DNA of 64,000 nucleotides, taken from the NCBI GenBank assembly GCA_028534125.1, contig CM052816.1, positions 45,076,001 to 45,140,000 of the forward strand. Direction: 5' to 3'. Each line of letters begins with the position of its first letter. The stretch's first letter is position 1. Below are positions 1,417 through 58,312 of the stretch, one piece after another. The notes under the pieces are model-generated. The model did no database searches, was not told the DNA's origin, and was given only the letters and a program-made list of their open reading frames with translations. The DNA is from Lama glama (Eukaryota). The position numbers and the translations under genes were made by a program.

Positions 1417-1473
1417 ATTGATCCAAATCCTGATCAGTCAGCAGATGATAGACCATCCTGCCCGTCTCGTTGA
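1417..1473 (+). CDS. ARRDC3: Final coding exon of arrestin domain-containing protein 3 (alpha-arrestin), C-terminal peptide IDPNPDQSADDRPSCPSR*
   Basis: Strong acceptor (ttttttcctcttttctttctAG, AG at 1415-1416), then a phase-0 frame ATT GAT CCA ... CGT TGA. The peptide matches the recalled ARRDC3 C-terminus that follows the second PPxY motif (...PPPLYSE|IDPNPDQSADDRPSCPSR). Upstream exons lie outside the window. Confidence 0.93.
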   Translation: MDPNPDQSADDRPSCPSR

Positions 1474-4165
1474 AGGAATACTTGGTTAAATCAAGTTGAC
1501 GTGGATTCCGAACTATATCTCTTCCCTTCCCAGCTGAGGACAGAGAAGTATCTTGGAGACATGTTTTCAGAGGAAGTGGAATTGCTTTTGCCCAGAAAAA
1601 TGACAAATACATGAAACAACCAGTGATCATGCTTTAGAAGCCTACAGCAACATTCTGGGACTGCTCCAACATGCTTGAAGATCTAAGCTTTTCTCCTTTA
1701 AACCTGGCACATACTAAGAGCAGTCTTCTTAGCCTATGGTCATACGTGTCAAGACACCATGTTGTAAAGAGGGATGATGTCCTTCTTTTGATTTGAAAAT
1801 TTGCACATGCTCAATGCTTATATTGTGCAGTTCAATGTCACTACAGCTTTTTTTTTCCATTTATGCCAGACTCTTAATACTCTTTTAAAACTTGTTTGTG
1901 GTGAGCACAACAAGGAACAAAAGCTTTGAAAAAAACTTTAACATGAAAAAAACGCACTGACTTTTTTTTTTAATTTAACATAGCCTGGACTTTACCTGCG
2001 TATGCCATGCTCAGAATTGTCCTACTAGGCTGACCATGTATCACCTCTTCAGCTTGGATCCTATTGTGGATTTATTTACAAACATCAAATGCCTTCAAGC
2101 CAATCCTTCTTGCTGTATGTTTTGCAGCCTACTGTAGTAGATACGCAACAGTATGTGGGAAAAGAGATGAGAGGAGGAAGCTAATAAGAGACTTTGTCAA
2201 GATTGTATACCTTCTTGGTTTCTTTTAAGAATTTGTTGCCTTTCTACTATTACAGCAAAGCAGCATTTTGTTACTGACTGCCTAAAATCACTTAATCTCA
2301 GGTGAACGCATCACTTGCCAAACTGTTGGAATGCTATTTGTGTTTTGTTGCACTGTTGAGTTATTTTTTGTTTGTTTGTTTGGTTGGCTTTTTGGAGAGG
2401 GAAATTTGGAAAAGGGACATACACAAAAGTGATAACCCACCCGCATTCCCTTTTTATCGTTACATATAAGAAGAAACTAGCAGAGCTAAGAATGGAGTAA
2501 AGAAAGGCAGTATGGCAGGCACCAGCAAAGAGTTAAGGGCTGTTGCTCTTAAAAATGATTATTTTTCTTATTATTTTAAAAGTATGAAAGTTTTCCAGTC
2601 ACTGGAGAGGAGGAAAAAGTGCATTTATTTTTATACAGAGTTACTTAATTACCTCCAAAACACATATGTTGGAAGTCATTTTTGCTGGTGCAGAGTATTT
2701 TCATGAGCAGGAATATATGTATACGTAGGTTCAGTTTCTGATTAGAGAGCTCAGTGGATACATTTCCTATCCTGCTCAAGCCTGACAGCTTGAAAACCCA
2801 GGCTTATTCTAAAAGTGTGTAACTCCAAAATTACGAATACTACAGTGTGTGCTGGAGTAATAACTTTTATATTTTTGTGGATTTTTTTAATGAAAGTATT
2901 TTTTTCCATTACCTTAAAGAACATTTTGCTAAACATGAGAAATCATTCACTCTCAGTATGTATAGATAAGATAATGAAGAACGAACTCATCGGTAAATTA
3001 CAGCTTGTATTAAAGATAATTTCCAGTTGGCTCATAACAAATATACCAGCATTCATGAAGACACTTAAAACTGCATTTTCCAAGGTACCAAGTGTACTGA
3101 TTGTCTTATTTTAGAAGGAATTCAGCTCTGATGTTTTTTTAATGGACATCAGCATCTCTGATGTTGCAACATATGTGTGAAATGGGTGTTTCAACTATCC
3201 TGCCATTTAACCCCACAGTTAATAAAGTGGCTGAAAATAATAGTAACTCTGGCTTGGTGCTTGACCTGGTTAAATACTGTCTTAAAGCTTCATACAAAAC
3301 AAATAGGCTTTTCCATAAGTGGCCTTTAAGAAAACATGGAAGACAATTCATGTTTGAATAATGCTGACAGGGTGAAGAAAGCCCATGTAAAAATGAATCG
3401 CGTTTTAAGTGATTCGGTTAAAGGGTTTGGGCTCCCGTAGCAAACTAATACTAGATAATAAGGAAATGGGGGTGAAATATTTTTTTATTGTTGTTAAATC
3501 ATTTTGTGAATGTCCCCCTCAAAAGAAGCTAATGGAATATTTGGCATAAAGGGCATTTGGTGGTTTTTTGTTGGGGGTGGGGATTGTCAGAAAATCCCTT
3601 TTCTTTTCCTCTTATGTCTAACTGACTAGGGAACAATTGTTGATATGCATAGCATTGGAATACTTATCACTATATACTCTTATGAATAACACATGAGGAA
3701 AGAATGACCAATATTCTGGTAATTGGCACTGGGTCACAAAATAAAATGTGATAAAATTTTAAATATATAAAACTTTATCAAATAAAGTTTTATTTTCCCC
3801 ATTAAAGTATTCCTTTACTTTCTTATTTTTAGAGGCATTACTCCTTTCTAAATATTGGTCACTTCTTGATACAAGATGTGAGGTTCACAGTTGTATTCCA
3901 GTATTCAAGATAGATTCCTGATTTTTCAATTAAGGAGAGTAAAATCCAAAATGTTAGCAAAACAAAGTGCAATATTAAATGTTTGCTTTATAGATTATAT
4001 TCTATGGCTGTTTGTAATTTCTTTTTTTTTTTCTTTTTTATTTGGTGCTGAATATGTCCTTGTAGGCTGTTTTAAGAAAACAATATGTGGGAAATGATTT
4101 AATTTTTCCTATTGCTCTTCCTTGTGGAAAATAAAGTGTTTTGGTTTTTTTCCTTTTTGTAAAAT
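1474..4165 (+). other. ARRDC3: ARRDC3 3'UTR (~2.7 kb, repeat-free, U-rich)
   Basis: Follows the stop codon and has no recognisable TE. AATAAA occurs at 3221, 3781 and 4130, the last followed by a GU/U-rich tract. The 3' end is approximate. Confidence 0.85.
4130..4135 (+). terminator. Likely distal polyadenylation signal of ARRDC3
   Basis: AATAAA followed by gtgttttggtttttttcctttttg. Confidence 0.65.
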
Positions 4166-14539: not shown

Positions 14540-15010
14540 ATTATAGCAGAACTGTTCGGTGGCCCAGTTTACAGCCATTCCCACCTACTTCTTTGTTGAC
14601 AAATTCCCGTTTACTCAGGGCATCCATCTCTCACAGGTGATTCAGGGGTGGGTATAGCTAACTGGTAGAGCATGTGCTCAGCAGGCATGAGGTCCTGGGT
14701 TCAATCCCTGACATCTCTATTTTTAAAAAAAATTAGTGATTCAGGAGTGAATCCTAGTTGGTAAGATGATCACAAAAAACCCTCCTCCCTTGCCAGTGAT
14801 GAATTAAGGAAGAGCATGTGATTCAGCTCTGGCCAATGAACCATAAGTCATCTGGGAAATGTTTCTTCTCTCTTAAAGTAAAACAGAAGAAAGAAACGTC
14901 CTATCTTCTTACACTGCATGTTGTTATGTCTAGCTGTGATGCCAGAAATTGCAGCATTCATTTGGCAGCCATGAGGGAAGCCAAAGACAACAAAGTGAAA
15001 GACACGCTCA
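14540..15010 (+). mobile_element. Old MaLR LTR (MLT1I/J-like) interrupted by a camelid SINE
   Basis: ccttgccagtgat ... gcatgtgattcagctctggccaatga ... tgtgatgccagaaattgcagcattcatttggcagccatgaggg. Confidence 0.7.
14645..14735 (+). mobile_element. Vic-1-type tRNA-derived camelid SINE
   Basis: ggggtgggtatagctaactggtagagcatgtgctcagcaggcatgaggtcctgggttcaatccc with A and B boxes and an A-rich tail. Target-site duplication GTGATTCA at 14637-14644 and 14736-14743. Confidence 0.85.
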
Positions 15011-22789: not shown

Positions 22790-23554
22790 GAGTTGATTCT
22801 CATTATTCATGGTAGTTATGTTCTTTTTTTATGGGGGGGGGTAATTAGGTTTATTTATTTATTTATTTTAATGGCGGTACTAGGGATTGAATCCAGGACC
22901 TCGTGCCTGCTAAGCATACACTCTACCACTGAGCTGTATTTTCCCCTCCACCCTCTATACTTACGTTCTATAAAGTCACCACGAACACTGAATTAGTAAA
23001 CATTGAACTGTTGCTCTTAGAGGAAATACAGGGTTACGTTCCTGCAAGACTTTGGTCATAGTATTTTTGTGGACTGATCAATGTATAACATGTGTGTTTC
23101 TCTATTCAAATACATCTTATTTAAGGATAACATCATGACCATCAGCACCATAATTCATGCCTGATTGAAACTTATGTGACACATGTATTTTATCTGTAAG
23201 ATCCATCACAAGCCTCTCACACTTAGGAACAGCACTATCGCACTACGCTTTGTGGCCAATGTACACAGTGATATCGCCAACAACAAGCACAAAAATGAGA
23301 AAAACATGGCACTAAACAGACCACAAAAAGGACATTTGTTTACACTGTGAGAACTGAAACAAAGCGGCACAGGGTCACTTTGAATTCAGTTGAGAACATG
23401 CACTTAAGGTAACTCAGATTTTTCACTGCTCTGTGTGTGCACATGTCAGTAAATAACCGTGGATACCACAAGTATTGATTTTAGGGTTACAAATAAATTG
23501 TAGCAAGTAGGCAAGTTTGTAAATGTGGAATCCATGAATAATAAGGATTGACTG
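22790..23554. mobile_element. MER82-like TcMar-Tigger non-autonomous transposon with a SINE insertion
   Basis: Inverted ends gagttgattctcattattcatgg / ccatgaataataaggattgactg, flanked by TA on both sides. Confidence 0.8.
22825..22947 (-). mobile_element. Vic-1-type camelid SINE
   Basis: Reverse strand reads gggg...gctcagtggtagagtgtatgcttagcaggcacgaggtcctggattcaatccctagtacc plus an (AAAT)n tail. Flanks are ttatgttct / ttacgttct. Confidence 0.85.
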
Positions 23555-25610: not shown

Positions 25611-28600
25611 TAAGTAGTACTGAACATTTATTTTCTTCCCATCCTTATTTTCACCCACAAATGTAAGGATGCCAGGTTATATGCTATACTATGTCCTTCA
25701 CTGTCAAAGTTTTATGAACTATACGAAATAATGGAGATAAGCCCATTTTTAGCTTAAAAATGAAATCGAGTTACTAGTCCTGGCCAAGCCAACTGTCATC
25801 TTTGAAAAACAGAGACTACTCTTGAGTTTGGATGTTAAAATATATCTTATAATTCAGGGTGCACATGTGCAGAATGTGAATTTGTGTTGCAAGTTTTCTC
25901 GAAGCTAGTGTGCAACTGCCTGATTGGTCCAAGTATTAGCACAGCAACAGAATTTTAGAAACCTCCGCATTCGTTGCCAAAGCCAATCACACACTACAAA
26001 TGCAGTTTCCAAACTCACTATAATCATCAGCGTCTTTGTAAGGATACTGCAAGTGCACCGTTCCTTTTATTTTTTAGAAATGCTAACTCCAGCCTTCTAT
26101 TCTTCTACATTCCCTGTAGGAACATAGAGGTTATTTTTACATAACTTTTAAAAGAAGTCCACAGCTTTTAATAAGTGGAGACGTGGGCAAAAATGACATT
26201 TATGCATTATCTTCAGATAGACTGAGGTTTACATTGTGTAATGTTCCAGACAAGGTCGCAGTGCAACAGAATGGGCTGTTTGCTGTATGAGCCACAAATA
26301 CATGAGGCTAGATTGGCTTGGAGATATGCAAATATCAGTGTATTTTGTTGTGTAATGTGACCAGATGTGTTTAAAATGCAACAAAAGCTGAGTCACATCT
26401 TCCATGAAGCTGAGCACCAGTGAGAAGCAGCTGAATAGTGTGGTCACAAGACAAGGCTCACAGTAAGAGGCTGCTTGCAATATTTTATCTTTTTCCATAT
26501 TTTGAAAAGGGATTCTCAGTTCCAGTTCTATCTATGTACATTTTTCGGAAGCACGTCATGCACCACTTTCTTAGATGAGGAAACCATCCCAGGAAGACAG
26601 AGTGGGCCCAAGTCTGAGGCAGAGACCTGCTAACCTGTCTTGCTGTTTGCCTGGGAGAGCCCAGCTTGTTCCCAGAGTGAGCAGGAGTCATTCCGCTAGA
26701 GCGACAAATTACTCCTAGGGTCGCCTAGTGGGTACAGGGGAGATACAGGTTCCAACAACACTGCCTGCAGGAGAGACTTTTTTTTTTTTTAATTAATACA
26801 TAGTGAGGATCTAAGAGGCTTTACCACGACGAAAGATACAGTGAAGAGAGAAATGGAACGCCAACACCAACGAGGAAAGGAACATCAGGGAAAGGGGCAT
26901 TCCAAGTTTTGAGGTTTTGTTTAGTTTTGGTTTGGTTCTTTTGAGAAATGATTTTGTAACTTTTTTGTTTGTGTGGCGGGGGGGGGATTTTAAATCTTCC
27001 CCTTTTTTAGATTTGGAATGTGTCTTTCCGTGAGGTAAGGAAGAGTTACTGTAAATGCCTAACCTCTATTTTTCCTCTTTCTGCTAAGAAAATTGCCGTG
27101 AAACAGGCTGCTGATGCTGCTCCCTTATTTTGCACCAAGTAAATGTTTAAATATTTTAAAATAAACATGTTTCAGCTGACTGCTGGATGAGATTCATTAC
27201 AGCCAGGAGGAACTCAGTGGAACCGTTCAAGGAGATCTGGTTAATATCACCATGATTTATGCCTGTGGTGGAAATTGCACTAATATTTACACAAAGGGCA
27301 TGGTTTGGGGGCAATGGCAAGGCCCGACTGAAGTGAGAATTTGCACAGTCAATGCCCACTAATGAAAATAGCTACAGTTTAGTGCTCTTTCCAAAAGCAT
27401 AATTAGGTCCTTCAAATGACATGTTATTTTCACATTTTTACTCTTAAGCTACAAACTTTTCCTTGCCATCCAGTGCCTGCATTGAGATTATTACTTTGCA
27501 AAAACAATAAAGCCAGATAATACTAGGCTACAGGATAACTTCTAAAAAAAATGGACTTTGGCTATTCTTTGATAAGATTTACCAGTGGGAGGAGGAAATC
27601 ATGATTTTCTTGATTAGTTATATTTTTTAAAAAATGATCTTTGAGTAATCTTTATAGTGTCTGAGCAATACTGTAGAACTGCATTTCTTGGCACTCTAAA
27701 CATTTGAGTGAATTTGATGTGGGTGGGGAAGAAACTTCAGACCAAAAATTACACTGGAAATACAGTTCTACTAAAGTCCTTGTGGGTTTCCTCACTTCAG
27801 TGATGAGTGAGCCACTGGGAAATCTCTGATGCTGGGTTTGCCAGCTTTTCACTTTTTCTTTATTCTTGCTTTCCAAGTTCAATGGTTTTCTAATTCATTC
27901 AGGAAGCAGAACATCCTGGAAGTCAAGGTGCTCTGCATGTCACATGTCAAAATACAGATATGTCTATTCTGATTCAATACAAAAAGACTTACCTATGCAT
28001 CTATAGCTAGGGATGGTAATCTATATAAATATATAAAAATGTGTACATTTATTTTGTTTTTCAAGATTTTTCAACATTGGTGCTGTAAATAACCTTCCCT
28101 TGATCTTATATTTTTAAATAAAACAAAGCTGTTTCCAATTAGGGCTGTTCCCATCTTTTCCTTTTTGTACTTGTTACTTATTCACTCACTTTTGTAGCCA
28201 GCAAATAAGATGCAATAGCTGATGTTTTAAGAAAAAATCATAAGAGAAAAATCTAAAATTTTAATGATTCTAGGCACTTATTTGAGATTTTTCTGAGTTG
28301 GGAAAATTCCTTTTTTTGATTTAAGCACTGAAGACATTAGTCCAGCTCATAGTCCAGCAATACTAGATTTGAACAAAGCTTGAGAACTGTTCCTCTAATT
28401 TTAAGTTGAAAATGCATAACAACACCTAATTTCTGCTCATAAGATAGAGACGGGGCATTAATATCGGCCAAGGTTAACTGGAAGGCAGCTATGGACAGCT
28501 TCCTTGTTTTTTGTTTTTTTAATCTTTGTTGAGTGCTTAACTATGTGCCAGGCACTGATTTAAACTCTTTAAGTATATTAATATTTTTAATCTTCAAAAC

Positions 28601-29269: not shown

Positions 29270-29367
29270 GGGGAGTGAGTATAGCTTAGCTGTATAGCGT
29301 GTGCTTAGCATGCATGAGGTCCTGGCTTCAATCCCTAGTACCTCCATCAAAAAGAAAAGAAAAAGAA
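29270..29367 (+). mobile_element. Vic-1-type camelid SINE
   Basis: ggggagtgagtatagcttagctgtatagcgtgtgcttagcatgcatgaggtcctggcttcaatccctagtacctcc plus A tail. TSD agaacttta (29261) / agaacttca (29368). Confidence 0.85.
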
Positions 29368-32080: not shown

Positions 32081-33494
32081 AGTGTTAAAAATTATTATGA
32101 GCAATCCAGAATGGATTTCCCAAGGACTTGCAACTACAGCATATCTCAAAGTGGAAAAAATGAAATTTTCAAGGGAATTAGAGTCACAAAAATGTCTGAA
32201 TATTTTCTCTTTACTTCTGTTATCCAACATTTATCTCAAGTAGAACAACATTTCTCTCTGGGCTCCAAAAGGGATTTGTAGAATTACCACCATCTGCCAA
32301 CAGAAATTATTATTACAAACAATAATTACATTGACACTGAAAACCCTGGGGGGGTAAATACAAAAGTCACAATTCACTATTATCTTTGAGTAGAATCTGC
32401 AGAGGTTAGAGGCAAGTGGAGACAACCTCCTTCAAATTCAAATCAAATAAATAGTAGTAAGCACTCTGCCTGTTCTGGACTCACTGAGCTAAACCCTGAG
32501 AAACACAAAGTGTGTGATGCCAAGTGCTTGCTGACCAGTGACTATACTGATGCAGCCGAGAACATTTTCATCAGGGAGGTTGTTTTGGATGAGTGGAAAG
32601 GATAGTACCAGTGGTGAGGAGTGGAGTTGTGGACGGTGTGGGTTAATTCCTTAATCTGAGCCAGAGGGTACAAAAATGTGATCTGAAAGTTGAATCAGTC
32701 CTGTAGGTATTTTAAACACTTAGAGTGCTTAAAAATAAAAGTTTGAAATCTTATTTAATTCTTTTCGGACATAGCACTTAGCAGCTAGTCTAATTCAAAA
32801 GTTTAATTCATGAGCTCCTACAGGTATAGTTTTTGATCCTTGTATCTGAGCTATTCTTGGATCCCTGCTTGAAAGTTGGCCAGCATCTGTCAAACAAAAA
32901 ATCCAGAGAACACTGCTCTTTAATGAGCAATATGAAAGTGTCATGCTGTTAAATTTTAATAATGCTAGCTTCCACAATACTCAGGAAATAGCTACTAGGT
33001 AGGATTTCCTCCTAGGCCTCTTTCTTAAAGCTTTGTCCTGCTCCTGTTTATCTGCCAGGGACAAAAACAAAAAAACAAAAAGTTGCAAGCCAGTGTTAAA
33101 GGGAAACAACAAACAAAGCCGAGTAAGGGTCTGTGGTGCTGGGAAGCAGGGGTAGATGAATTTCTGCAGGACAACTGCCAGGATAATCAGAAGATAATCA
33201 GAAGTCCTCATTAGGGAGATAGAATAAAAATTTTAAAGCAGCCTCTAAATTTCAGGAATGGAATCCATTGATAAGAGTTCATTTTAAAAAGGAATCTCCA
33301 CACTTGGAGCATGAGATCAGGCTTGTCAATTTCTGTCAGTTTCCAGATTCGTAATGGGTGACTTGGCACCCTGGCTGACGGGCTGGCAAGAAAAGAGCTC
33401 TCCTGTGTCATATCAGAGACCGCCACAGAAACCCGGGGCAATGTTATTTGTCACTTAAAGGAGGAGGCAGCCTGAGAGTGTCCCATCTGCCGGC

Positions 33495-33527
33495 TGCTGA
33501 GTCATCCCACTCTGGTAGCTATTTAAA
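33495..33527 (+). promoter_or_regulatory. Core promoter of the LUCAT1-like lncRNA: NRF2/sMAF ARE (with embedded AP-1) and TATA-like box
   Basis: TGCTGAGTCAT at 33495-33505 is a full ARE/NF-E2 consensus. TATTTAAA at 33520-33527 lies 30 nt before AATCAAC at 33550, which matches the recalled 5' end of human LUCAT1. Confidence 0.75.
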
Positions 33528-33825
33528 CAGAAGCGTCCAGCCGGCACGCAATCAACAGTCCACTCAGACAATGCCCAGACCGCCAGAAGTCGTGTTCAGC
33601 TTGGATTGCCCGTGACAAGTACAACTTTCGAAAACAAGTTTCCGTCCTCTTTTCCCGGTATTGTCTGTCACTCTAGGGGGTTCTGACTTTTGGCTCCTTT
33701 CCTCAGAATGAGCCCATCCAGCCGATCCTCCAATGGAACCTTAGCCCCAGGGGCCACCAATTCCTGTTTCAACTTTTCTCACAGTCTTTCCAGTATTTCT
33801 TTCAAGTCAGCAAACATTGGCTGAG

Positions 33826-33925
33826 NNNNNNNNNNNNNNNNNNNNNNNNNNNNNNNNNNNNNNNNNNNNNNNNNNNNNNNNNNNNNNNNNNNNNNNNNNN
33901 NNNNNNNNNNNNNNNNNNNNNNNNN
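33826..33925. other. Assembly gap (100 N placeholder)
   Basis: Seen directly. Confidence 1.
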
Positions 33926-34489
33926 GCACCAATAAATACCCTTCTCTGAAAGCCATGACCCTCGTGTGTGGCTATCTGGGAGGAACTGAAGGGATGTGGG
34001 AGGCATCAAAGGGATATGGGAGGAGTGATGTTTTAGAAGGGCTTTTCCAGTCTGAAGGTGTATTTGCATTTCTACCTGTCTGCCAGCCGTCGCCCCATTT
34101 GACCTGGGCCCTCACGGCTGCTCTGTCTGGCTGTGAGTACTACTGATGCTTCTTTTCCATGCCCATCCTCTAGGTGTTCCCTTCAGTGTGTCAGATGAGG
34201 ACTCTCTTCATACTTGGCTGTCATCTGTCAGCCACAACTGTCCTGTCCAGAAGCACTGGCTTTGGCTTTCAAGCCTGCTTCCTGGCTGGCTTCTTCCCCA
34301 CTCCATTAAGGAGGATACCATTCGAAATCACATGTGCTGCAGGTGCTGCTGATGAAAGTGCTAAAGTTGCTGGATGTGACTGACGTATTTGGGAAGGACA
34401 GGACAGTGTGCCCATGCAGTTGTTGTGTCCAAATACTGTTCTTATCTCCCAGTGGAAAGGTACTGTAAATAAAGAGAAAGGCCCCTACC

Positions 34490-34720
34490 TTATTTTAAAC
34501 ATCTGAGCTAGGAGCTGTCCTAGGCACTACGTAAAAGCTGTATTTAGTTCTTGCAGTAGTAGTGTCCTTAGGTTAGAATCCCATGTTATAGACTGAGGAA
34601 AGTATGGCTCAGAGAGGTTAAGAGACTTACCCAAGGTCACACAGCTCTACAATTTTTGGTTGAGCGTGACTCTACACAGATCTATGTGAATTTGAATCTA
34701 GTCTTCTTTAAACTCCTGGT
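34490..34720 (-). mobile_element. MIR SINE
   Basis: gaggaaagtatggctcagagaggttaagagacttacccaaggtcacacagct. Confidence 0.85.
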
Positions 34721-36195
34721 ATAGTTCACAGAAGGAGCTGTGGAACGTTAACACGGCAGTAAGATTTCTGATTCCAGTCTGATTATGAGTCTTTTAAGCA
34801 TCATAGCACAAGTTTCTGACTCCTTGCTCTGAAACATGAAACTGATTGGAACAAATTAGAGTAGAAGGAAGCAACAAATGTCTAGTAAAATCTAATTCAT
34901 CCAATGAAAAGATTGATCAATATGTTTAAGTTCACAGAACTTTTAAGTAGAATAAAAGACACACTGGGAGAGAGATGTGGGGAAAATATGTCTGTTTTTA
35001 TGACTTGTTGATATCTATGGGGTTTTTCCTTAAGCCTCAAAACAATTTACAGCATTGCCAGCAGCATTCAGTACATTCAGAACAGGATCATTTCACCCAC
35101 AGCTGAACTAAGGCCATGCCTGGGACAGCACCGAGAACAGCCTTCCAGCAGACATGCCAGGGAGTAAGCCAGGGTCAGTGAGTGAAGAGGCAAGCAGGGC
35201 CATTTAAAGCAACATCGTTTATGTAAGTGTGATCTAATTGCTTCCACTGGAAATGGGTCATATTCAAGTCCAAAGAACCAGGGGCCTTAATGACCCCAGT
35301 GAAATCAGAATATGGCTTTTCTGTCAATCTCCTCGGAGAGTATGGCCCTCTGATGAAATAATGATGCTTGGATTCATTTCAGTCTGCCAGGTTTCCCACT
35401 CCCTTCTTGCTTCCTCACTGTTGATTTGTTATTTTTCTTTCTTTCTTTTTGGTTAAACACATTAAACTCAACAGGATATATCATATGACAGACTGGGATA
35501 AATTTACTACTGGGAATAGGGGAAAAGTATGGGACAAAGAAATAGGTCTTTGTTGCCTCTCACAGTCGTGATTCAGTTCTGACTCAAAAGGAAGTGTGCC
35601 ACCTACTGAATCACGGAAACCACTTCCTGTAGCTGTTTGGTTTATTCTGGAAGGGCATCAGGCCAAGTCCTGCCCTGCCCTGACCCTGACTGGCTCTTCA
35701 GAGCCAAGGCGTTCACAGCTTGAGGTGGTTTGGCCTCAGACTCTGAGAACATGACATATTAAATTACAAGTGTCTCATTTCCTAGCAAGGAGTCTTCAGC
35801 AACATGAAAATGAACATGTGTTATTTGCAAACTGAGTGTATCGTTACTCAACCTGAATATCCTTACTATTTCAGAAGGTATGTATTGTGCATGACCACTC
35901 TCCAGATCTAAATGTACACTGGCTCTGTTTTTCCTGAGGGTCACATGGGCAATCTGTAGGGTGGCATTAACCAGATGAAGCGGCAAGTGTACCCTTTCAT
36001 CTGGGAAGCAACTCTAGACTTGTCTTCATTCATTCAACGTATTTGTGAGCACATGCTCACTGCCATGTACTTGCGTAGCTGTAGAGGATACAGTGGCAAA
36101 CAAGACCTTCCGGCTCCTGACCTCATGGTGCTGATGTTCTACACTGTATGGAATACATTCTCCCCTCTAGAGGCAGGGGCTGGGCTTTGCACACC

Positions 36196-37053
36196 ATTAA
36201 AAGGAACATCAGCTAAAGTAAAGCTGTTGTTTCCTCTCTACCCACAGAACATTTCGGACACCAAGATGTGTGGTTTTTCCTCACCAAGAAATTCTCCAAT
36301 TCTTGGCAAACACGGATGGAGTAGCCTACAGTTTAACTCAGTTCTGACACTGGTTGCCTGGAGTTAGCACAGACCCCTCAGGTTAAGGGCTCAGTCCCAT
36401 CAGACTACTCCGGACTTCACACACCAAGTCCCACTTGTCACCTGGACTTCTGAACATTGAGCATTCCCACAATTCCCTCCTGAGGTTTGATAACTTGCCA
36501 TATTGGCTCACAGAACTCAGAAAAAATACTTTACTTATGTTTACTGGTTTATTTTAAAGGATACAACTCAGAAATAGCCAGGTGGGAGATTTATATAAGT
36601 CAAGGTTTTGGGGGTGGAGGGTTAGGCAATGGAGCTTCTGTGTCCTCTCTGGGTGCATCACCCTCCCAGTACCTTGATCTGTTCACCATCCCGGAAACTC
36701 TCCAGACTCCATAGTTTAGGATACACAAGGAGACTCCATTACATAGGCTGACTGAGTCAGTCATTGGCTGGTGGTGATTAAGTCCATCTCCAGCCCCTCT
36801 CCCCTCCCTGGAGGTCAGGTAGTTGGTTGGAAATGTCCAACCCTCTAATCACATGGTTGGATCCTCTGGCCACCAGCCCCATCCTCCTAGAGTTACCTTA
36901 TTATCACAAACTCAGGTATGGTTGAAAGGGGCTTATCATGAATAGCTAAAGATGCTCTTATCACCACTATCACTCAGGAAATTCCAGGAGTTTTAGGAGC
37001 TCTGTGCCAGGAACCAGGGAAGAGGACCAAAACGTCTATTTCTTATTATATCA
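36196..37053 (-). mobile_element. MER21-like solo LTR
   Basis: cctggagttagcacagacccctcaggttaagggctcagtccc ... ggctcacagaactcag ... tctgtgccaggaaccaggga ... tatttcttattatatca. Confidence 0.85.
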
Positions 37054-37977
37054 TAATCATGCAGTCTCAGCATCCAGCATTGGCCCTTGCATGAAGGAGT
37101 CCCCTCAATACTTGTTGGTAGAGTAAATATACAAAAGAAGAAAGAATAAAAGGAAGAAGGAAGGAAGAAAGGGAGGGAGGGAAAACCATCTCATTATTAT
37201 CCTTTGTTGTGTTTGGAAGTGAAGATGAAAGCATCCAGTTTTGTATTGCTTTTTTCCTTCTTGTAAACTACAGGTTTCTGTTCTTAGGTGGGTCTGGGGA
37301 TTCTACAGTGCCGCAGAACACATCGGGCTCTTTACCGGGATGTTCTGGAACCCAGGAGGCCCATTCTGAGATCAAGTCAACACTTGAAGTCCTGAGAATC
37401 CCCTCTGAGAGCAAAAGGCTCTTTGTTCTTCTCTTCAGAGGGTCACAATCGCTAATGACAGAGAATCTGTCATTCCTCTGGTGGTCCATGCCCAATAGAT
37501 GCGTTCAAGAATGGTTGCACATCTGTGCAACATGAAGCAAATAATTTACCCACCTTATAGAAGAGGTCTGAGAAGTCAAGGAAACCATATCTAGAATGGT
37601 GCTTGGCACACAATAGGCTCCTTGTAAACAGAAGCCATCACAACGGCAACTTCTCTTATTCTCATTACTGTCACTGCTCTACTACTGTTACTTTGGTTGC
37701 ATCTATAAAGCCAGCAGTTTTTCCTGGGTATGACCAGTGGCCTTAGGTTTAACAATAGCATCCTACAGTTCAGGGTGTCTCCTCCTTTCTAAACCTGTAT
37801 TTTTCTTTGAACAGATCATAAAAACTTTAAATTGACATCCAGTTGAAAATCCCTGTCAAGAAGATACTGTCTGGGTTACTTACAAGTTTAATCTTAGAGA
37901 GCAATATTTTTTCCCCAAGCATAAAATTATAACATTGAATGTTTTTAAAAAATCATATGTAACTCAAATATAAGTAA

Positions 37978-38321
37978 TGTTAAAAGATAAACAGGCATAT
38001 TAAAATTATTAAGTATTTATTTGAGCAAAGATTGAATTAAATTGGGCAACACCAAACCAGAAGTGGTTAGGAGGGCTCCACTGACAGGAGCCTGGGGAAA
38101 GAATTTTCTAGAAAAGAACTGGAAGCAAAGTAAAAGATTACTGGCAATAGTGTAAGTAGTTGCATTAATTGGAAAAGACTCATTGGCTGTTTGTGACAGG
38201 GTGTCCTTAGGTTTCGATTTCTTAGCCTCAAGGCATTTATAGGCTTGAGTTTTGGTTTGCTTACTAGGCTGCTAAGGCATTCGAACAACATTAGACTAAT
38301 GGCCTCCTGACTTAATTAACC
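37978..38321. mobile_element. ERV1-type solo LTR (family uncertain)
   Basis: Starts TGTTAAA and ends TTAAC. Contains tttatttgagcaaag and ggtttgcttactagg motifs typical of ERV1 LTRs. Confidence 0.6.
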
Positions 38322-39432
38322 TAAGGTAGGTTGTTTTGGCCCTGCCCTAATTAAGGTCTATTCTCTGTACATTTGACATAAAAGAAACGAAAGAAGAAAC
38401 CAGAAGGAAAAGAAAAAGAAGAGGAGAAGAAGTAAGAAGAGATGCAAAGGGGGGGAAAACATCCCCATCAAAAACACTGAAGAGAAATGGAGGTTTTATT
38501 GAAGCTCTCTCAAGCACTGTTGAGGCATCTGTACTGTAGCGCACATCACAAGTGTAACTACTGTCTTGCTGAAACCTTGTTTATTTTCCCTCAGAGTTTC
38601 TCTTTCTATAGAAATCCCAACATCTCCCTTCATATAGCTTCTTCCTGACTTGGATGGCTCTTTTCTCACCTCTCATCCTCCAGATTATCCCAGAGGTGGC
38701 CGGCCCCTCTGTTTTCAGAAAGATCAATTTAACCTCTTCTCAGCCTCCTTAGGTCCCCTCACCTATCATGACATCTGGCTCAACAAAGGACAGGAAGTTA
38801 GATGCTAAGTGAAACTTCCCCAAATCGAGACATTCAGGTAGCCAACCATTCTTAGAGCAATTTACAGCAAGCAAATAAATTAGTTCACAAGAGTCTCAGA
38901 AACCCAACAGTAATTTAAACCTTCATCTCCAGGTACAGTTTTGCTACTGTTTTTGTTCTGCTCACTGATGTATAGCAAGTGCCCACAAGAACACTTGGCA
39001 TAAATATTTATTGAATAAATAAATAGTTAGAGAATTAGCATTTCAAGATATCTTTTCTACAGTTTTTCTCAAATGTTTTGTGTGAGACAAGTTGTCACAC
39101 ATGCATGCCTCCATAGAAAAGGATACAATTTTCAGTCATTACTTTTATTATGTCATTTTAGGTCAAATGTTACAAAAAATGATATTGAACTCTTAACCAA
39201 TCTATTTTTTCCATTGGAATATTGGCCTGACTGAGAAATAACATCAAGGAAAAATTATTTTTTTGGCAGAAAAATGTCCTCACTAAATTCTTGTATGTTT
39301 TGTTTTGATTTTTCCTTAGTGACTGGAGGTCAGTTTCAATCCACTAAAGCACAGATTCCAAATTTTCAATCTGGTTTTCTTGAGTACAGCCTGGGTGCCA
39401 AGAATGAGGCAATGACACAACATCACTACCAA

Positions 39433-39433
<1 letters not shown>

Positions 39434-39469
<36 letters not shown>
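39434..39469. repeat. (AC)18 microsatellite
   Basis: Seen directly. Confidence 0.95.
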
Positions 39470-39471
<2 letters not shown>

Positions 39472-40449
39472 CAGAGTCCAGGGCATGTTCTGCTGACTTG
39501 CAGGCTTCTCCCCTCTAAAAGTTACTCTCAAAATCATACTTTTAAATTTCAAATGGATCTATTCCCTCTCTCTCTAGCCAATTCTTAGTGACGTTTTTTT
39601 GTCTAATCCACTGATCAGGGTCTTCCAGACCCTATAAGCTATCATAATGGAATCATCTATTGACCAAAGATAATGTGTCCTCTACTTATCCTTTCTTGCT
39701 TCCTTTTAAAACTTGGATTTTCAATATGCTTGTGAGTGAATCAATGACTATAAATGTAATTACTGGAGAAACGATCATTTTGCTTTAGCCCAATAAAAGA
39801 GGAACTAAGTATTTTTGGCAGCCCCCAAAGAATCACATGTTATTAAACACGTGTTGTAGAGGAGGGGTAGTGCCCTGAAGGAAAGAGTGGCACGCTAGAC
39901 AGCCAAAAGAACAGACATCCACTACAAGTAATTTGAGTACCAGGTTTGGGTGAGACCCATCTCTGCTGTGAGACTGGGGACAATTCACTCAGTATAAGCC
40001 TTAGTTTCTTCAGCTATAACTCAAGTATTGATATACTTGTCTCCTTACTTTGTAACTCTCCTTTCTAAAGTTAACTGTATCTGTTGTTCTGTGAGTCTTC
40101 AATTCTCAGATTAATCTTTTCCGGTTATAGCCACATTCTCTATCATTGACAGAGAAGTTCACCTAGTTATTTTGGCTTCTCTAATCCTGCTGCTGAGAAC
40201 ACCTCTGAGGGAGCTTTCGGTCAGGAGCTGACAATGGCATTTAAGGTCACTTGTGCTGTTGGTAGAGAAGGAGAATTTGAAAGGACACCAGTATCTAACC
40301 ACCAATAATATATATATATTTAATTTGGACCTAGTAACTTCCCTGATAACGATATTTAGCTCATATTTGTTATGTCCTAATTAATGCCAAGCTTTTTAGA
40401 AAATCCATCACCTCATTTAATTCTTACAGTCATCCTTTGAAATAAGGTA

Positions 40450-40720
40450 TCAGGGTGTTTGACTATAGTTACGGGAAAAAAAAAAACAACCCAGCCTCCA
40501 GCTAACTTAAGCAGTAGGGCCTTTGTTGGCCCACATAACTGGTAGTCTAGAGAGGGTAGCTTCAGGGTTGGTTTATGGATCCAGTGGCTCCAAAATGTCA
40601 CCAGCTCCCCAGGTTCTGTCTCTGTCCTGATATCCACTGTTGGACCCCCTCTTGTACCAATTTCCCTCTATAGAATGGCTATCAACAGGAAACTTGCTTA
40701 CTTACGTATATCTAGCAAAG
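40450..40720 (-). mobile_element. Old MaLR LTR fragment (MLT1J/K-like)
   Basis: ttgttggcccacataactgg ... cttcaggg ... ggatccagtggctcc. Confidence 0.55.
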
Positions 40721-41319
40721 GAGAGTGAGTACCCCCACAATGAAAAAAGCAAAAAAAAAAAAAAAAAAAAGGCTTCTCCTCCTCATAGTCCACCTAACTT
40801 TAGTCAGCTGCTTAGCTCTGAGACAGCAGCTCCTGGGGATGGAAGTTAGAGGAAGAAGGAATATCATGATATAATTAACTCATATTCCTGAATTCATTTA
40901 TCCTGATTGATTTGGATGAATTAGAATTTACTCCTGAAGGTGGGGCGATTTTCTGAACGACACTGCCTACTACACAATGGAAGAGGAATTGAGCAAATTT
41001 GGGGAGCCAACTATAATATACATTACAGGAAAATACTGCTAATTCCCAATTTACAAATGAGAAAACTGAGGCATGAGGGAGAAAGATCAATTTGCCCAAG
41101 ATCATAACTGGGCCTTAGAAGTCTATCTCCATTCTAACAATTAATTTTTTTCCTCTGTGCATTTCTTCAAAGCTTATGATGTATAGGAGCAATTAAGAGA
41201 ACGACCACAGCACTAGTCATCAAGAGATGAGATTATAATCCTGCTATATAACTTCTTTAAAAGTGAGAATGATAAAACTACTTACTGGAGTAGTGGCAAA
41301 TATTCAGATAGAAACCAGG

Positions 41320-41478
41320 CAGAAGAGTGGCATCACATGGGAACTTGTTTGAAATGCAGATTCTTTGCCCTACTCCAGACCCACTTAGTCAGAAGCTCTG
41401 GGGGCAGGGTCCAGCAATATGTGCTTTAACAAGCCCTTCAGGTGATCTGATGGTTGCTAAAATTTGAGAACCGCTGGT
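41320..41478. mobile_element. MER5A MITE
   Basis: gcatcacatgggaacttgtttgaaatgcagattc ... ctctgggggcagggtccagcaatatgtgctttaacaagccc ... tttgagaaccgctg. Confidence 0.85.
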
Positions 41479-41827
41479 CTAACACATTGCCTGGTGCCTA
41501 AGATTTTATTTGTTACTGTTCTAAAGACAATGAGGATATTGACTTCTGTCTCCAAGAGTTCACAATCTAGGGAAAGAAAGACAGAGTTCTTTATGAATGT
41601 CTTTAATACAGGACCATACTGTTTGACAAATGCTCTGATAGAGGTTTAACTCACTTTGAAAGCTCGTAAGGGGTTGAATTTATTTCTAACAAGATGAATC
41701 TCAGAAGGCTTTATAGAATAGATAAGAAACAGAAAGAGAAAAAAAGAAGCTATGAACTAACAACAGCACAGATAATTAAACTTCCAGAGCTCACAACAAA
41801 GTTACATCTAGAAAGTTAACTTAAATA

Positions 41828-42002
41828 CAGTTGACCCTATGCTCAAAGATCTGTGTATAACTTACATTTGGCCCTCCAGAAACATGGTTCCACATCCTCA
41901 GATTCAGCCTACCCAGGATCTCGTAGTACTATAGTATTTACTACTGAAAAAAATTCACGTAGAAGTGGCCCCTCACAGTTCAATTCTGTGCTGTTCAAGG
42001 GT
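41828..42002. mobile_element. MER8/Tigger2-like MITE
   Basis: TA cagttgaccct ... gtagtactatagtatttactactgaaaaaaattcacgtagaagtgg ... tgttcaaggg. Confidence 0.8.
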
Positions 42003-44649
42003 ATAGCACAGACACAGATTAGAGATCTCACGTATATGGAAGTGAAAACCCATCAGAAGTCAGCAAATGAGGATTTTAGTCCTGATGTTACATTTACCAG
42101 CTGGCTCTTAATGTGCTATTTCACACATCCAAAAAGAGACTGGATTCCCCAGTTCTTACCCACAGAAAAATACGGTTAGGAAAAGGCACGTGTAGATTTA
42201 AATATTTCACTGAGGAGCATGGGCACACCCTGGCTAAGATGCACCAGACCCAGTGGTCTCAAATCTGCAACTGTAGATTGAAGAATTATGGAATATAAAG
42301 TTAGTATGTTAAAGAAGCACATAAATAGTATTAAAAATCTGTAAGTCAGTCTGCTTTGTTGTTGTTTTTGTTGTTTTGCTTAACGTCTCTATACGTGCTT
42401 CAGTACTTAAACACCCAATTAATATGTACCGACTAAAATGTCACCTTCCCTGCGTGGATCACAAAGTCCTTGGCAGTCACTTCCATACCAGACTAGTGAG
42501 TATTATTGTTCTCATTTTCCAGATGGATAAACAGAGGAGAAAGGCCTTGTTATGTGTCACACATTTCAGTCACCAAATGAGACACAATGGATACCAGTCT
42601 TCTCATCCCTTCAACAATAAAGAGCTTTTAAGTTCTTGTAGTCAACAAGGACTTTTGGAAAGATTATACTGGCTGAAAAGGCCTATATATGGGTGGCATC
42701 CCCAAGTAGGAGGAAAATCAAATTAAAGCTGGGTGTCTAAGCTGACTCTCAGAAGAAGAGACAGAAGAGTTGTAAAATTTTGGCAAAGAGTCTGAAAGAA
42801 AATAAATGTAGCTGATTTTCAAGTGCTGTTTTTACACAGTAAAACAAGGGCCAAATTGCTCTTCTTTAAGTAGTAGTTATCTCTTGATTAATAGATTGAA
42901 TCATTCACTCATTCAATAAATACTTTTTGATTGCCTTTTATGTGCCAAGTATTCATCCCTGTACTGGAAATGTAACAATGACCAAAAGCAGACGATGATG
43001 ACAGTGATGATAATAATAACAACAGCAGCAGCTAATGCAGCAAGTGCTAATAACATAGTAATATATAATAATTGTTGAATAAAATGTCACAACTCAGGAT
43101 GAACTAGCATTCTCTTTGGGGCTGCATCCATTGACTATAAGACAGCTAATCTGCTTTGAAATTCCCCCGCTTTAGGGCTCTCTATCAGAAGGAGCTGTTG
43201 TTGGGCCTGCTTCTTGGTGGTGCTGTGTCAACCAGTGAAAATGAATTTATGCTCACTGTCCTCGGAAAGGCAACTGAAACTGAGAGCCCTGTGATTTCTT
43301 TCATGAATTTTTTTAAATGACTGGAGCCAGCTCTTCTGACTCTACTTCTTTGTTTCTGACGTACTTAAATACTGCAAGAGCTATGTAAAATAAAAGAAAT
43401 GTCATCTTAATATTGTTTTCACACAAAACAACAGCATTCTTTCAACTGTGCTTGAGATGGAATAAAACACGAGCATATTTGAGAATAACTTTCAATGGTA
43501 AATTCATTCTATCTGTGCTTTTTAAGAGTAAATGCTCTGGGGGCTTTAAAAAACATCTCTTCATCTTTTTAAATGTCACTTTACTCACACTGATGATGCT
43601 CTCAGATGTTAGGAAATCTCTTGAGACAGAAAGTGGGAATAGAGTGATGCAATATTTCTGAGTGTCATGTGATTTCACAATTTGTTTTTCAATCTCTTTG
43701 GACTTCCGAAAAGGAAGATTCTCATATGTCAACAAGCTCATGAACTGAAGCTTAAAATGCTAGAAACAAAACTATAGAGTTTCAAATACAGGAATACATA
43801 TGGTCATATTGTTTGATGGGATGTTGGCTGGCATTACTGTTTAATCTCCTGGGAAATGTTAATTTTTCTCTGACAGATTTACTGGCTTGCTTTCTCTGAA
43901 CACATGAACCATAAACAATGCCTAGTAAGAAAACTTTCTGTTTTCTCCAAGGTCAAAGTTGGAACAAGGAGAGGGAATTCAGTTTTCCTTCCTTGACATT
44001 ATTCATTATTCTTGTAGTCAGTTTGCTCATAAAGAATGCAAACCTCTTACAGTTAGTACAAAGATACAGCAACTTTTCAGAGCTAAAAAATAAACTGATG
44101 AAATTGGAAAGATATAAAAGTATACTTATTAACGTCTTCCAGAATTAAAGTTTGAACTCTGTGCTCTCATTGTCAAGACAATGTCAGTGTAACTGTAAAT
44201 GAGAAAACAAAACGAATTCTTGTCTTCTCATAGTCTACTAGTCTGAGCATCTATGACAATCTCTGCTGGTACTTGAGTACTTAAGATGTTAACCTACTCA
44301 TGCTTTCCAAGGTTCTATGTGTTTTTCCCAACTCTGTTGAGCATTTCTGATACAATGTAGATGCCTCCGTGATAATAAGTAAATGAAGAGGAAAGAAAAA
44401 AAATTAAAGTTTAGAAATGGCATTAAGAATAGTAGCAATAAAATATAATTGTGTGGAAATGACAGCCCTAGAGGCAGGTTCGTCAAATAAAATGCATGGT
44501 ATTTGATTCAGAGTCAGAAGATGATTGAAATTTGCCTCTATTTGAGCTAAATTATTTGGTAAACTTTAGTCAAAGTTTTGTGATTTGATTTTCAAAATAA
44601 AGCTAAAAAAAAATGAAGATATGAATTTATTTTCAAAAGTAAAGTTGCC

Positions 44650-55831: not shown

Positions 55832-56944
55832 TATATACTTGATTAAAATTTTAGATATTTTACATAAGAATAATTTAATATTTTTTTGAAAAAGCATAGC
55901 ACATAAGTATATCTCTGGTTACAAACAGTTCAAGTATATTAGATTCCATTTCTGGTCCATAGTACTCATTTTGCTTTTCTGGGCTCTCACCATCTCTCCC
56001 ATTTTCATGTTTCCTGATTTTTTTTTTTTTTTCCAGTTTGGTGGCTTTCCTTTCCTTTTAAAAAACTGCATAGTCATGCTTCTCTGTAACCTTGGTGAGT
56101 CAGTTCAACCTCTAATTACTTCAGTCCCCTCCCTTGTAAGAAAAGCTGTCAAAATCCAAGAACACTCAAATGTTTTGTATCATCTCACACGCACACAGGG
56201 ATAAGGAGGGATGTAATTTTCCGGAAGAAGCAGAACAACTGACAACAGCTGGCCACAACAACTTCTAGACCCAATCTGACTGTCTTGAAACTCCGCCTCA
56301 AACTACCCCTAAATAATAATTACCCGACATGCACCAGGACCATCTCACTGACTAGCTGCACTTAATGACATAATACCTGCTGTCAACTTTCAGCACAGAT
56401 GCAATCATTGCCACAATATTTTGTAAGACCAACAAAGTATCATTTGTACCTAAGATAGTGGGATATTAGTTAAAAGGACACACAAGGACATGGCTCCTTG
56501 TTCTTTGGTAATCTCATATCAAATTACTATCAAATATCTTTCATCTCCAAAATAATTTAGTTATTAGAAAGGTGACTGGACAAACCAGCAAAAAAAAAAA
56601 ATATTTTTAACTAACAAAAAGCAAATCAGAAGAGAGTTGTCTTTTTCTCCAGTTACCCAGCATTCAACGCTATAACTGTAGTCACATTATAATCATCTTA
56701 GACCCCCCAAAGCAGTGTGACGATCTGATGCATAATTTTCAACACGTTTTATTCATCCATTCTTCCTGTGCTCCATTTAAAATCCTGGAAACTATAAAAA
56801 AAAAATCAGCGTGTTAGTCCCCTGCCTGGAAAAGTTTTTTTTTTAATTTAAAAAATAAAAATGAAATGAAAAAAACCTAACAAACACGAAAAAAGCCAGA
56901 GCAACAGGAATCTCGGTCTTGAGGAAACACATGGGATTGAAGCA

Positions 56945-57300
56945 TCCGCCGGAGCTCCGTAACCAGCTGTCACATGTGACTTTCCCTCGGCGCTGAATCC
57001 TGGATCCTGGATGTCACCAGACTGGGGCGAGGAGGCCGTGCGTGCAGGCGAGTATGCGACCGCGGGGGCCCGGGGACTGACGCGCCCTCCCGGCGCGGGG
57101 AGGGTCTTCCTGGAAGCCCGGAGGCGCTCGGCTGACCGAGCGGCTGCCCGTGGGGCCGGGGCGCCTTGGCCGGCACGTAGCGCCCGGCGTGACTCAGCGC
57201 TGACTCACCGCAGCCGCTGCCACGGGATTTCCCGGTCCGCGCTCGCGCTCCCGGGTCCTTTCCTGCACGCCCGACCAGTCTCCTCGCTTTAAACCGAGCA
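56945..57300. promoter_or_regulatory. Small orphan CpG island with inducible TF motif cluster (promoter or enhancer)
   Basis: The only CpG-dense stretch in the window. Contains GTCACATGTGAC palindrome (56969-80), HRE TACGTG on - (57174-79), double AP-1/ARE (57189-57208), GGGATTTCCC (57224-33) and TTTAAA (57288-93). Confidence 0.8.
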
Positions 57301-58128
57301 GGACAGATTTTACAGCTTTTGAATCCCGATCAAGGAGGGAATTAACTGGGCTAGTGTTCTTTGACTTTAAGAGCTGAAGAGTTCACTAATCAAAATCCTT
57401 CAAAGGCTTGTTGAAATAAATCCCTCACGTCGTGCTTTCACAGTGACTTTGAGATGACCTCCACTCAGAGTTTGCTTCTGTCGGTCGTACCAAGCTCGCA
57501 TCTTATTTTGTCCCACATTTTGGGAGGTTATGTTTTCAGTGTGTTTGATAACTAGCCTTGGCACAAACCCACAATTGTGGTGACGCAAATCAAGCTGTCC
57601 TTGAGTGACTTACTGTAAAAACCAGGGAACACTTCTTAAAGACGTCCTTATCTGCCATCGCGATTGCTGATTAGATGCCACGCTCAATTTCAGTCTGTCA
57701 CTTACCCTCTGAAAGCTCCTCGGATGAACTTGGATTGTTAATACCCAAATATCCTGAGCGGTCATGCCCCTTTCTTCCTCTCCCGAGTTCAACGCAGACA
57801 GCAATAGTAAGGCAGTACCGCTCCAGCTGTAGCCGAGGGACCACCTGTGTAGGGAGTGCCCGCGATATTTGGCAAAAAAAATCAGGTTCTTCCATTGCAC
57901 TCCAAACGGCAGACTTAGAATGTCCTAGGCTGGGGCCTGGAAATCAATCTTACGAAGCGCCCATCAGGGATTCCTGTGTACACTTCGGTTTGCAAACTAC
58001 TAGCCAGAGGATAAGGGTGTGAGACATTATTTTTGCGAAAAGTATGAGAAATCCTTCAAGTCAAGAACACTTTGTTCTAAAACTGATATTGAAGTTCTCA
58101 TGACAGGCAACCATATTTCTAAAATTGG

Positions 58129-58312
58129 TTTTACATATAATATTGTGTTTGCTTTAACTGTATATTAATGACAGATTTTTTCTTTTTAATTAGAAAGTCA
58201 GGTATAGAATAAAATGATTTTACATATGATAATTGTTTGCTTTAACTGTATATTAATGACAGATTTTTTCCTTGCTAATTAGAAATTCAAATTCAGATAT
58301 AGAATAAAATGA
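58129..58312. repeat. Tandem duplication, two ~90-bp AT-rich units
   Basis: 58129-58217 and 58218-58312 share tgtttgctttaactgtatattaatgacagattttttc ... tatagaataaaatga. Confidence 0.9.

What the first reader, a model, noticed from the sequence alone, without database searches (positions are those of the whole stretch)
33495..42690. Apparently intact camelid ortholog of the lncRNA LUCAT1
Seen in sequence: a promoter, four exon-like unique blocks, canonical splice sites and a poly(A) signal on the + strand, ~29 kb after ARRDC3. Established: human LUCAT1/SCAL1 lies downstream of ARRDC3 on the same strand, is NRF2- and inflammation-inducible, and is studied almost only in human cells. Inference: the colinear similarity to human LUCAT1 (recalled, not aligned) implies the transcription unit predates the primate-laurasiatherian split. 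It may be an unannotated stress-inducible lncRNA in camelids.
Basis: partly seen in the sequence, partly recalled or inferred. Interest (0 to 1): 0.72.

Follow-up and report, generated by a model that had tools for sequence, protein, structure and literature searches.

The report
Camelid counterpart of human LUCAT1 locus
This is the matching copy, probably in a camel-family animal, of the DNA that makes the human stress-induced RNA LUCAT1; its on-switch and two internal control-like blocks are well kept, but its exons are no better kept than neighbouring filler DNA, so an intact working RNA is not shown.

Summary
The locus is the LUCAT1 orthologue. Six of seven published human primers map here in order. 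The human 5' end falls on 33550 (25/26), 30 nt after a TATA-like box and 45-55 nt after the window's only perfect NRF2 element.

'Intact' is not shown. The exon-1 donor lies in an N gap. Human exon 2 is an Alu. Both splice sites of human exon 4 are missing at the aligned positions. By eye against human RACE sequences, exons are 85% identical, the same as an intronic ancient repeat (85%), so colinearity alone does not date the transcript.

The real constraint is elsewhere: two blocks (34992-35128, 35568-35744) are 96% identical, do not fold unusually, and one holds AP-1/ETS/RUNX-type motifs. Fourteen RNA-type runs hold the 5' region, probably unspliced; strand, start and junction remain untested.

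Best reading: a conserved stress-responsive promoter/enhancer module that makes a loosely spliced non-coding RNA, without the Alu content credited with the human mechanism. Modest interest.

The parts
1417..4140 (+). Last coding exon and 3' UTR of ARRDC3 (synteny anchor; gene name recalled)
   Evidence: PMC8733180 names ARRDC3 as the nearest coding gene, 54 kb from human LUCAT1
33358..33368 (+). Second, looser ARE-type motif
   Evidence: pattern not enriched window-wide
33495..33505 (-). Perfect ARE (NRF2/sMAF-type) with embedded AP-1 site, -55 to -45 from the start
33520..33527 (+). TATA-like box at -30
   Evidence: the longer human RACE 5' end starts inside the matching motif (by eye)
33550..33825 (+). 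Orthologue of human exon 1; 3' end and donor lost in the gap
   Evidence: primers at 33550 and 33594; 50/58 identical over 33522-33579 (by eye)
33826..33925 (.). Assembly gap (100 N) over the expected exon-1 donor
34311..34459 (+). Orthologue of human exon 3; donor GT at 34460 kept; acceptor at 34309-34310 is only a candidate
   Evidence: 106/128 ungapped columns over 34328-34459 (by eye)
34505..34659 (+). MIR-like ancient repeat (label recalled), used as neutral yardstick
   Evidence: 132/155 identical to human (by eye)
34992..35128 (.). Conserved block A
   Evidence: 131/137 identical to human (by eye); folding z = 0.60 for 34992-35260
35568..35744 (.). Conserved block B, with AP-1, two AP-1-like, two ETS-type and two RUNX-type motifs: enhancer-like
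   Evidence: 171/177 identical (by eye); motifs; folding z = -1.38 for 35560-35850
36198..37060 (-). About 0.86 kb LTR-like insertion (MER21-like, label recalled) absent from the human read-through transcript
   Evidence: by eye; boundaries approximate
39310..40642 (+). Region matched by two human isoform-specific primers
42039..42140 (+). Orthologue of human exon 4; TG at the aligned acceptor position, no GT at the aligned donor position
   Evidence: primer at 42081; 66/78 over 42045-42122 (by eye)
42523..42940 (+). Orthologue of human last exon; acceptor kept; AATAAA at 42616 and 42915
   Evidence: 147/171 over 42523-42693 (by eye); primer at 42662

Best explanation
This is the orthologous LUCAT1 locus, and what selection has kept is mainly regulatory DNA. 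SHOWN: synteny, colinearity, an ARE and TATA-like box in register with the human start, and two 96% blocks. INFERRED: under oxidative or inflammatory stress NRF2-sMAF or AP-1 binds the element at -55 to -45 and RNA polymerase II starts near 33550. Block B works as an AP-1/ETS/RUNX enhancer in a hub shared with ARRDC3. The RNA is non-coding, mixed and often unspliced; when spliced it probably joins 34459 to 42523, skipping the exon-4 orthologue, and ends near 42940. The Alu-based hnRNP C docking proposed for human LUCAT1.1 would not carry over, so any camelid role is more likely local or tied to the act of transcription.
For: Primer mapping. The only perfect ARE in 64 kb sits at the mapped start; NRF2 binds the human promoter by ChIP (PMC9910463). 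Blocks 302/314 vs exons 319/377, P = 2e-7; exons vs intronic repeat P = 1.0 (by-eye counts, block edges chosen after looking). The blocks fold no better than shuffles. In human cells a distant HIF-bound site contacts both the LUCAT1 and ARRDC3 starts plus further enhancers (PMC5048371). 14 RNA-type runs from 8 studies hold 0.57-0.59 of the words of 33926-34700; exon 3 alone could give about 0.16 and exon 3 plus read-through about 0.48, so unspliced sequence is held. Human LUCAT1 is itself very heterogeneous: 61 Ensembl isoforms, 14 cloned (PMC7733444). U-tract density here is not raised: 2.6 per kb vs 3.1-3.3 in the flanks.
Against: Only 1 of the 14 runs is on record as RNA; 13 are guesses, none was laid, and DNA carry-over or ARRDC3 read-through would look the same. 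Conservation of the ARE itself in human was not seen (the RACE sequence starts downstream of it). Blocks A and B lie inside the human transcript LUCAT1-002, and a primer pair implies an alternative exon near block A (inference), so they could be RNA elements. Block A has none of the AP-1, ETS, RUNX, C/EBP or TEAD motifs scanned. Identity figures are hand counts between two species, with one 155-nt neutral yardstick. Changing LUCAT1 levels did not alter ARRDC3 in human stromal cells, which argues against a local role of the RNA product.
Confidence: 0.58

Rival explanations
1. Orthologous DNA with enhancer function only: there is no stable camelid transcript from 33550, and the signal in RNA-type runs is ARRDC3 read-through, enhancer RNA or DNA carry-over.
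For: Exons are at background identity. Of 4 human splice sites that align clearly, 2 are kept and 2 lost; at 85% identity three dinucleotides survive by chance 38% of the time. The runs hold intronic words. AATAAA occurs at 33931 and 34468, close to the start.
Against: The TATA-like box, ARE and start site are in register; 25 of 26 bases match at the human start. Several holding runs are small (27-85 million letters vs about 2,000 for the near-complete holders), four of them from one study.
Confidence: 0.2
2. One reading: an intact, spliced LUCAT1 lncRNA with a conserved trans-acting role damping interferon and inflammatory genes, with blocks A and B as its functional RNA core.
For: Start site, exon-3 donor, last acceptor and both AATAAA hexamers are kept. 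The F-Q-M-D stretch spanning the last acceptor is conserved (F, Q, M invariant) in 11 unnamed related proteins in 4 clusters. Blocks A and B are inside human LUCAT1-002.
Against: Exon-4 sites are absent, exon 2 is an Alu, and exons are at background identity. The human active isoform is credited to Alu-rich sequence (PMC9910463). No folding signal.
Confidence: 0.17
3. A small-protein gene kept in laurasiatherians and broken in humans: the frame that starts at the last exon (67 codons), or 103 codons if exon 3 is joined to it.
For: The hypothetical join gives a 103-aa ORF; 0 of 204 tiles of the window and 0.4% of 2,000 shuffles reach that. Four clusters at 71-85% identity keep the same frame open.
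Against: All 11 related proteins run on into the intron rather than into exon 3, and none has a name. The search can only find open frames. No Pfam match for 5 of 5 ORFs. Two upstream ATGs with A at -3 precede it. The exon-3 part shifts frame against human, and the human last exon has a 10-nt insertion and two stops in this frame (by eye).
Confidence: 0.05

Closest known systems
Human LUCAT1/SCAL1 (NR_103548.1, NR_103549.1; LUCAT1-001 and -002 of PMC8733180; LUCAT1.1 of PMC9910463)
   Same: Position after ARRDC3 on the same strand; same start site; colinear exons 1, 3, 4 and last; exon-3 donor, last acceptor and poly(A) hexamers kept; an NRF2-type element at the promoter.
   Different: 29 kb rather than 54 kb from ARRDC3; no Alu exon; exon-4 splice sites absent; an LTR-like insertion not in human; short ORFs not shared; induction and function unshown.
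lncRNA loci where promoter or enhancer DNA is conserved more than exons (general class, from own knowledge)
   Same: Exons near background identity; constraint at the promoter and in non-exonic blocks; variable splicing.
   Different: Here the human RNA has reported trans effects on overexpression (LUCAT1.1), so the RNA is not inert in humans.
Human LPS-inducible macrophage lncRNAs surveyed in PMC12095776
   Same: That study found such lncRNAs poorly conserved in mouse but better conserved in long-generation species, which is what is seen here.
   Different: The passages read do not say whether LUCAT1 or a camelid was in its comparison.

Membership tests
LUCAT1 orthologous locus (DNA level) | Downstream of ARRDC3 on the same strand | tested here: met
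   ARRDC3 identity of the peptide is recalled
LUCAT1 orthologous locus (DNA level) | Colinear similarity to human LUCAT1 beyond chance | tested here: met
   6 of 7 primers in order; by-eye comparison
LUCAT1 orthologous locus (DNA level) | Core promoter at the human start site with an NRF2-type element | tested here: met
   sequence only:
Intact functional LUCAT1 lncRNA | Transcribed on the + strand from about 33550 | tested here: inconclusive
   14 RNA-type holders, none laid; no strand or start
Intact functional LUCAT1 lncRNA | Same exon-intron structure as human | tested here: not met
   Alu exon has no counterpart in the sequenced part; exon-4 sites absent; exon-1 donor in gap
Intact functional LUCAT1 lncRNA | Exons constrained above neutral DNA | tested here: not met
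   84.6% vs 85.2%, by-eye counts, two species
Intact functional LUCAT1 lncRNA | Alu-rich, U-tract-rich segment for hnRNP C | tested here: not met
   U-tracts 2.6 per kb vs 3.1-3.3 in flanks; Alu is primate-specific (own knowledge)
Intact functional LUCAT1 lncRNA | No conserved coding frame | tested here: inconclusive
   no ORF shared with human (by eye), no Pfam match, but one frame is open in 4 other clusters
Intact functional LUCAT1 lncRNA | Induced by LPS or NRF2 activators, nuclear, damps interferon genes | not testable with these tools
   human data only
Conserved enhancer (blocks A and B) | Non-coding constraint above background | tested here: met
   302/314 vs 132/155, P = 5e-5 (by-eye counts, edges chosen after looking)
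Conserved enhancer (blocks A and B) | Open chromatin and enhancer activity | not testable with these tools
   motifs only, in block B

The most novel reading that the evidence does not exclude
LUCAT1 is an old boreoeutherian NRF2/inflammation feedback RNA whose working core is not the Alu content or the spliced exons but the two 96%-conserved blocks carried in read-through isoforms. Camelids and other livestock would then be natural Alu-free tests of the human mechanism and large-animal models for it. A smaller chance is that the last exon encodes a short protein lost in humans.
Probability: 0.15. Interest if true: 0.6.

Novelty: new member of a known kind. Interest (0 to 1): 0.28.

Why it matters
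Every functional LUCAT1 paper read here studies the human RNA. A non-primate copy with the same start site but no Alus separates two ideas: that LUCAT1 acts through Alu-borne hnRNP C sites, or that the old part is promoter/enhancer DNA or the conserved blocks. It also points human work to two short blocks; none of the passages read singles them out. Finding alignable lncRNA DNA in a large mammal is itself expected, so the bare orthology is ordinary.

Tried and rejected
No computed alignment to the human transcripts was made; those figures are hand counts.

Rfam: 1 match in the window, a tRNA-like hit at 29275-29346, none in the finding. ARAGORN: 0 genes.

Orthologous DNA from other mammals: 0 matches for a block-A pattern in viral contigs and genome contigs; 0 confirmed of 174 candidates for the protein alignment in metagenome contigs; 0 matches for a block-B pattern there.

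Earlier findings: none by place, words or sequence. Repeats inside the locus: only short two-copy pairs. Structured-RNA reading of the blocks: not supported. Promoter directionality by poly(A)/U1 counts: too few sites to tell.

Literature on non-human LUCAT1: searches with mouse/ortholog, livestock terms (swamped by papers without LUCAT1), primate-specific, porcine (20 of 42 listed), micropeptide (15 of 49 listed) and canine/equine/bovine/macaque (mostly off-target) showed no title or abstract start describing a non-primate orthologue. These are listings from an open-access library, not proof of absence, and genome annotations were not searchable.

One line translated from 33572 by mistake; the first ATG is at 33571 (14 codons).
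Full report
1. Setting. The window opens with a last coding exon at 1417-1473 and a long 3' UTR ending near 4140; I recall this peptide as the end of ARRDC3. A paper places human LUCAT1 54 kb from ARRDC3 (PMC8733180, passages); here the distance is about 29.4 kb. Camelid origin is not shown by a tool. It fits a short tRNA-derived, A-tailed repeat at 29270-29350 with two more copies at 83% identity, which I recall as the camelid Vic-1 type.

2. Orthology. Four primers from the methods of PMC7733444 (passages) each have their best site of the window in the finding, in the right order and orientation: 33550 (25/26), 33594 (22/30), 42081 (24/28) and 42662 (21/27). They were reached by 0, 1, 0 and 3 of 200 shuffles. 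Of three isoform primers from the supplement of PMC9910463, two map at 39310 and 40621 and one has no match within 3 mismatches. I then compared the two full-length human RACE sequences in Table S6 of PMC8733180 (supplement part 2) with the window by eye. Similarity is colinear from 33522 to about 37180 for the read-through form, broken by an LTR-like insertion at about 36198-37060, and covers four blocks for the spliced form.

3. Promoter. The window's only perfect ARE lies at 33495-33505 (0.10 expected), a TATA-like box at 33520, and the human start at 33550, 30 nt further on. The motifs are weak alone; their position at an independently mapped start is what counts. In human cells NRF2 binds this promoter and LUCAT1 responds to LPS, 4-octyl itaconate and sulforaphane (PMC9910463, section 5). 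I did not see the human sequence upstream of the TATA-like box.

4. Exon structure. Human exon 1 maps to 33550-33825 and runs into the 100-N gap, where its donor would be. Human exon 2 reads as an Alu (label recalled) and has no counterpart in the sequenced part. Exon 3 maps to about 34311-34459 with GT at 34460; its first 20 bases align poorly, so its acceptor is only a candidate. Exon 4 maps to about 42039-42140, but the aligned acceptor position reads TG and there is no GT at the aligned donor (GT-AG ends assumed for human). The last exon starts at 42523 after a good pyrimidine tract, and the human RACE end matches about 42940 with AATAAA at 42915. So 2 of 4 clearly alignable splice sites are kept, no more than drift would leave.

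5. Where the constraint is. By-eye counts over ungapped columns: exon 3, 106/128; exon 4, 66/78; last exon, 147/171; together 84.6%. An intronic MIR-like repeat gives 132/155 (85.2%). Blocks A (34992-35128) and B (35568-35744) give 131/137 and 171/177, together 96.2%. Exons vs repeat P = 1.0; blocks vs exons P = 2e-7. Limits: hand counts, two species, one yardstick, block edges chosen after looking, and most of exon 1 not counted. The blocks do not fold better than shuffles (146 and 21 of 200 fold as well). Block B holds AP-1, ETS-type and RUNX-type motifs within 160 nt (motif strings recalled, no chance test). In MCF-7 cells a distant HIF-bound site contacts both the LUCAT1 and ARRDC3 starts and other enhancers (PMC5048371, section 6).

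6. Expression. For 33926-34700 (76 sampled words), 24 runs were listed and 20 hold the stretch. Fourteen are RNA-type (1 on record, 13 guessed) from 8 studies at 0.57-0.59; six of unstated kind hold 0.93-0.97; four raw-read rows are not indexed. A share of 0.57 exceeds what exon 3 (0.16) or exon 3 plus read-through (0.48) could give, so these runs hold sequence that is intronic in the human model. That fits either a related species holding the whole stretch at about 98% identity, or a closer one holding the part up to the donor. Nothing was laid, so strand, start and junction are open, and DNA carry-over or read-through is not excluded.

7. Coding. The first ATG (33571) opens 14 codons and is out of frame with the human short ORF (by eye). 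Joining 34459 to 42523 would give 103 codons, which is unusual. A protein search with the genomic frame across the last acceptor found 4 of 4 candidates at 71-85% identity: 11 unnamed sequences in 4 clusters, all continuing into the intron and none into exon 3. They show the acceptor region is kept in other lineages, presumably mammals, but give no sign of splicing, and the search can only see open frames. Pfam: 0 of 5.

8. Mechanism and comparison. The human immune effect was obtained with a long isoform rich in Alu repeats and predicted hnRNP C sites; shorter cloned isoforms had no effect (PMC9910463, passages and supplement). Camelids lack Alus (own knowledge) and U-tracts are not enriched here. 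I therefore file this as the orthologous locus, not as an intact functional LUCAT1. Most likely (0.58) it is a kept stress-responsive promoter and enhancer module making a loosely spliced non-coding RNA. Rivals: enhancer DNA without a stable transcript (0.20), a conserved trans-acting RNA (0.17), a short protein (0.05). Whether LUCAT1.1 includes blocks A and B could not be seen; LUCAT1-002 does.

9. Novelty. Better sequence conservation of immune lncRNAs in long-generation mammals is in print (PMC12095776, passages and section 6). My searches (listings only) showed no description of a non-primate LUCAT1, but two were poorly targeted and annotations could not be searched. Also read as passages, with nothing on LUCAT1 conservation: PMC9457492, PMC4924651, PMC6917221. 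The original SCAL1 paper was not read. Verdict: new member of a known kind, interest 0.28.

Noticed in passing
window 56900-57350: CpG island (o/e 0.97, GC 0.66) with two back-to-back ARE/AP-1 motifs at 57189-57208, an NF-kB-type site at 57224 and an RCGTG-type hypoxia motif near 57174 (by eye), all within 60 nt. A candidate second stress-responsive promoter or enhancer of the ARRDC3-LUCAT1 hub.
   Followed up: partly
window 29270-29350, 22868-22938, 14645-14709: Three copies of a short tRNA-derived, A-tailed SINE-like repeat; the Rfam tRNA hit at 29275-29346 is one of them. Vic-1 label recalled.
   Followed up: partly
window 36198-37060: Solo LTR-like insertion (MER21-like, recalled) on the - strand, absent from the human read-through transcript; human has a different insertion a little further on.
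   Followed up: partly
window 41827-42003: DNA-transposon-like remnant (Tigger2-like, recalled) ending about 35 nt upstream of the exon-4 orthologue; it may bear on the missing acceptor.
   Followed up: no
window 26387-26395 and 26894: Another ARE core (TGACTCAGC, - strand) and an NF-kB-type site about 7 kb upstream of the start, in a tile with slightly raised CpG.
   Followed up: no
window 1474-4140: Long AT-rich ARRDC3 3' UTR with two candidate poly(A) regions, near 3735-3785 and near 4130.
   Followed up: no
window 58146-58280: Imperfect tandem repeat, period about 46, 3 copies.
   Followed up: no
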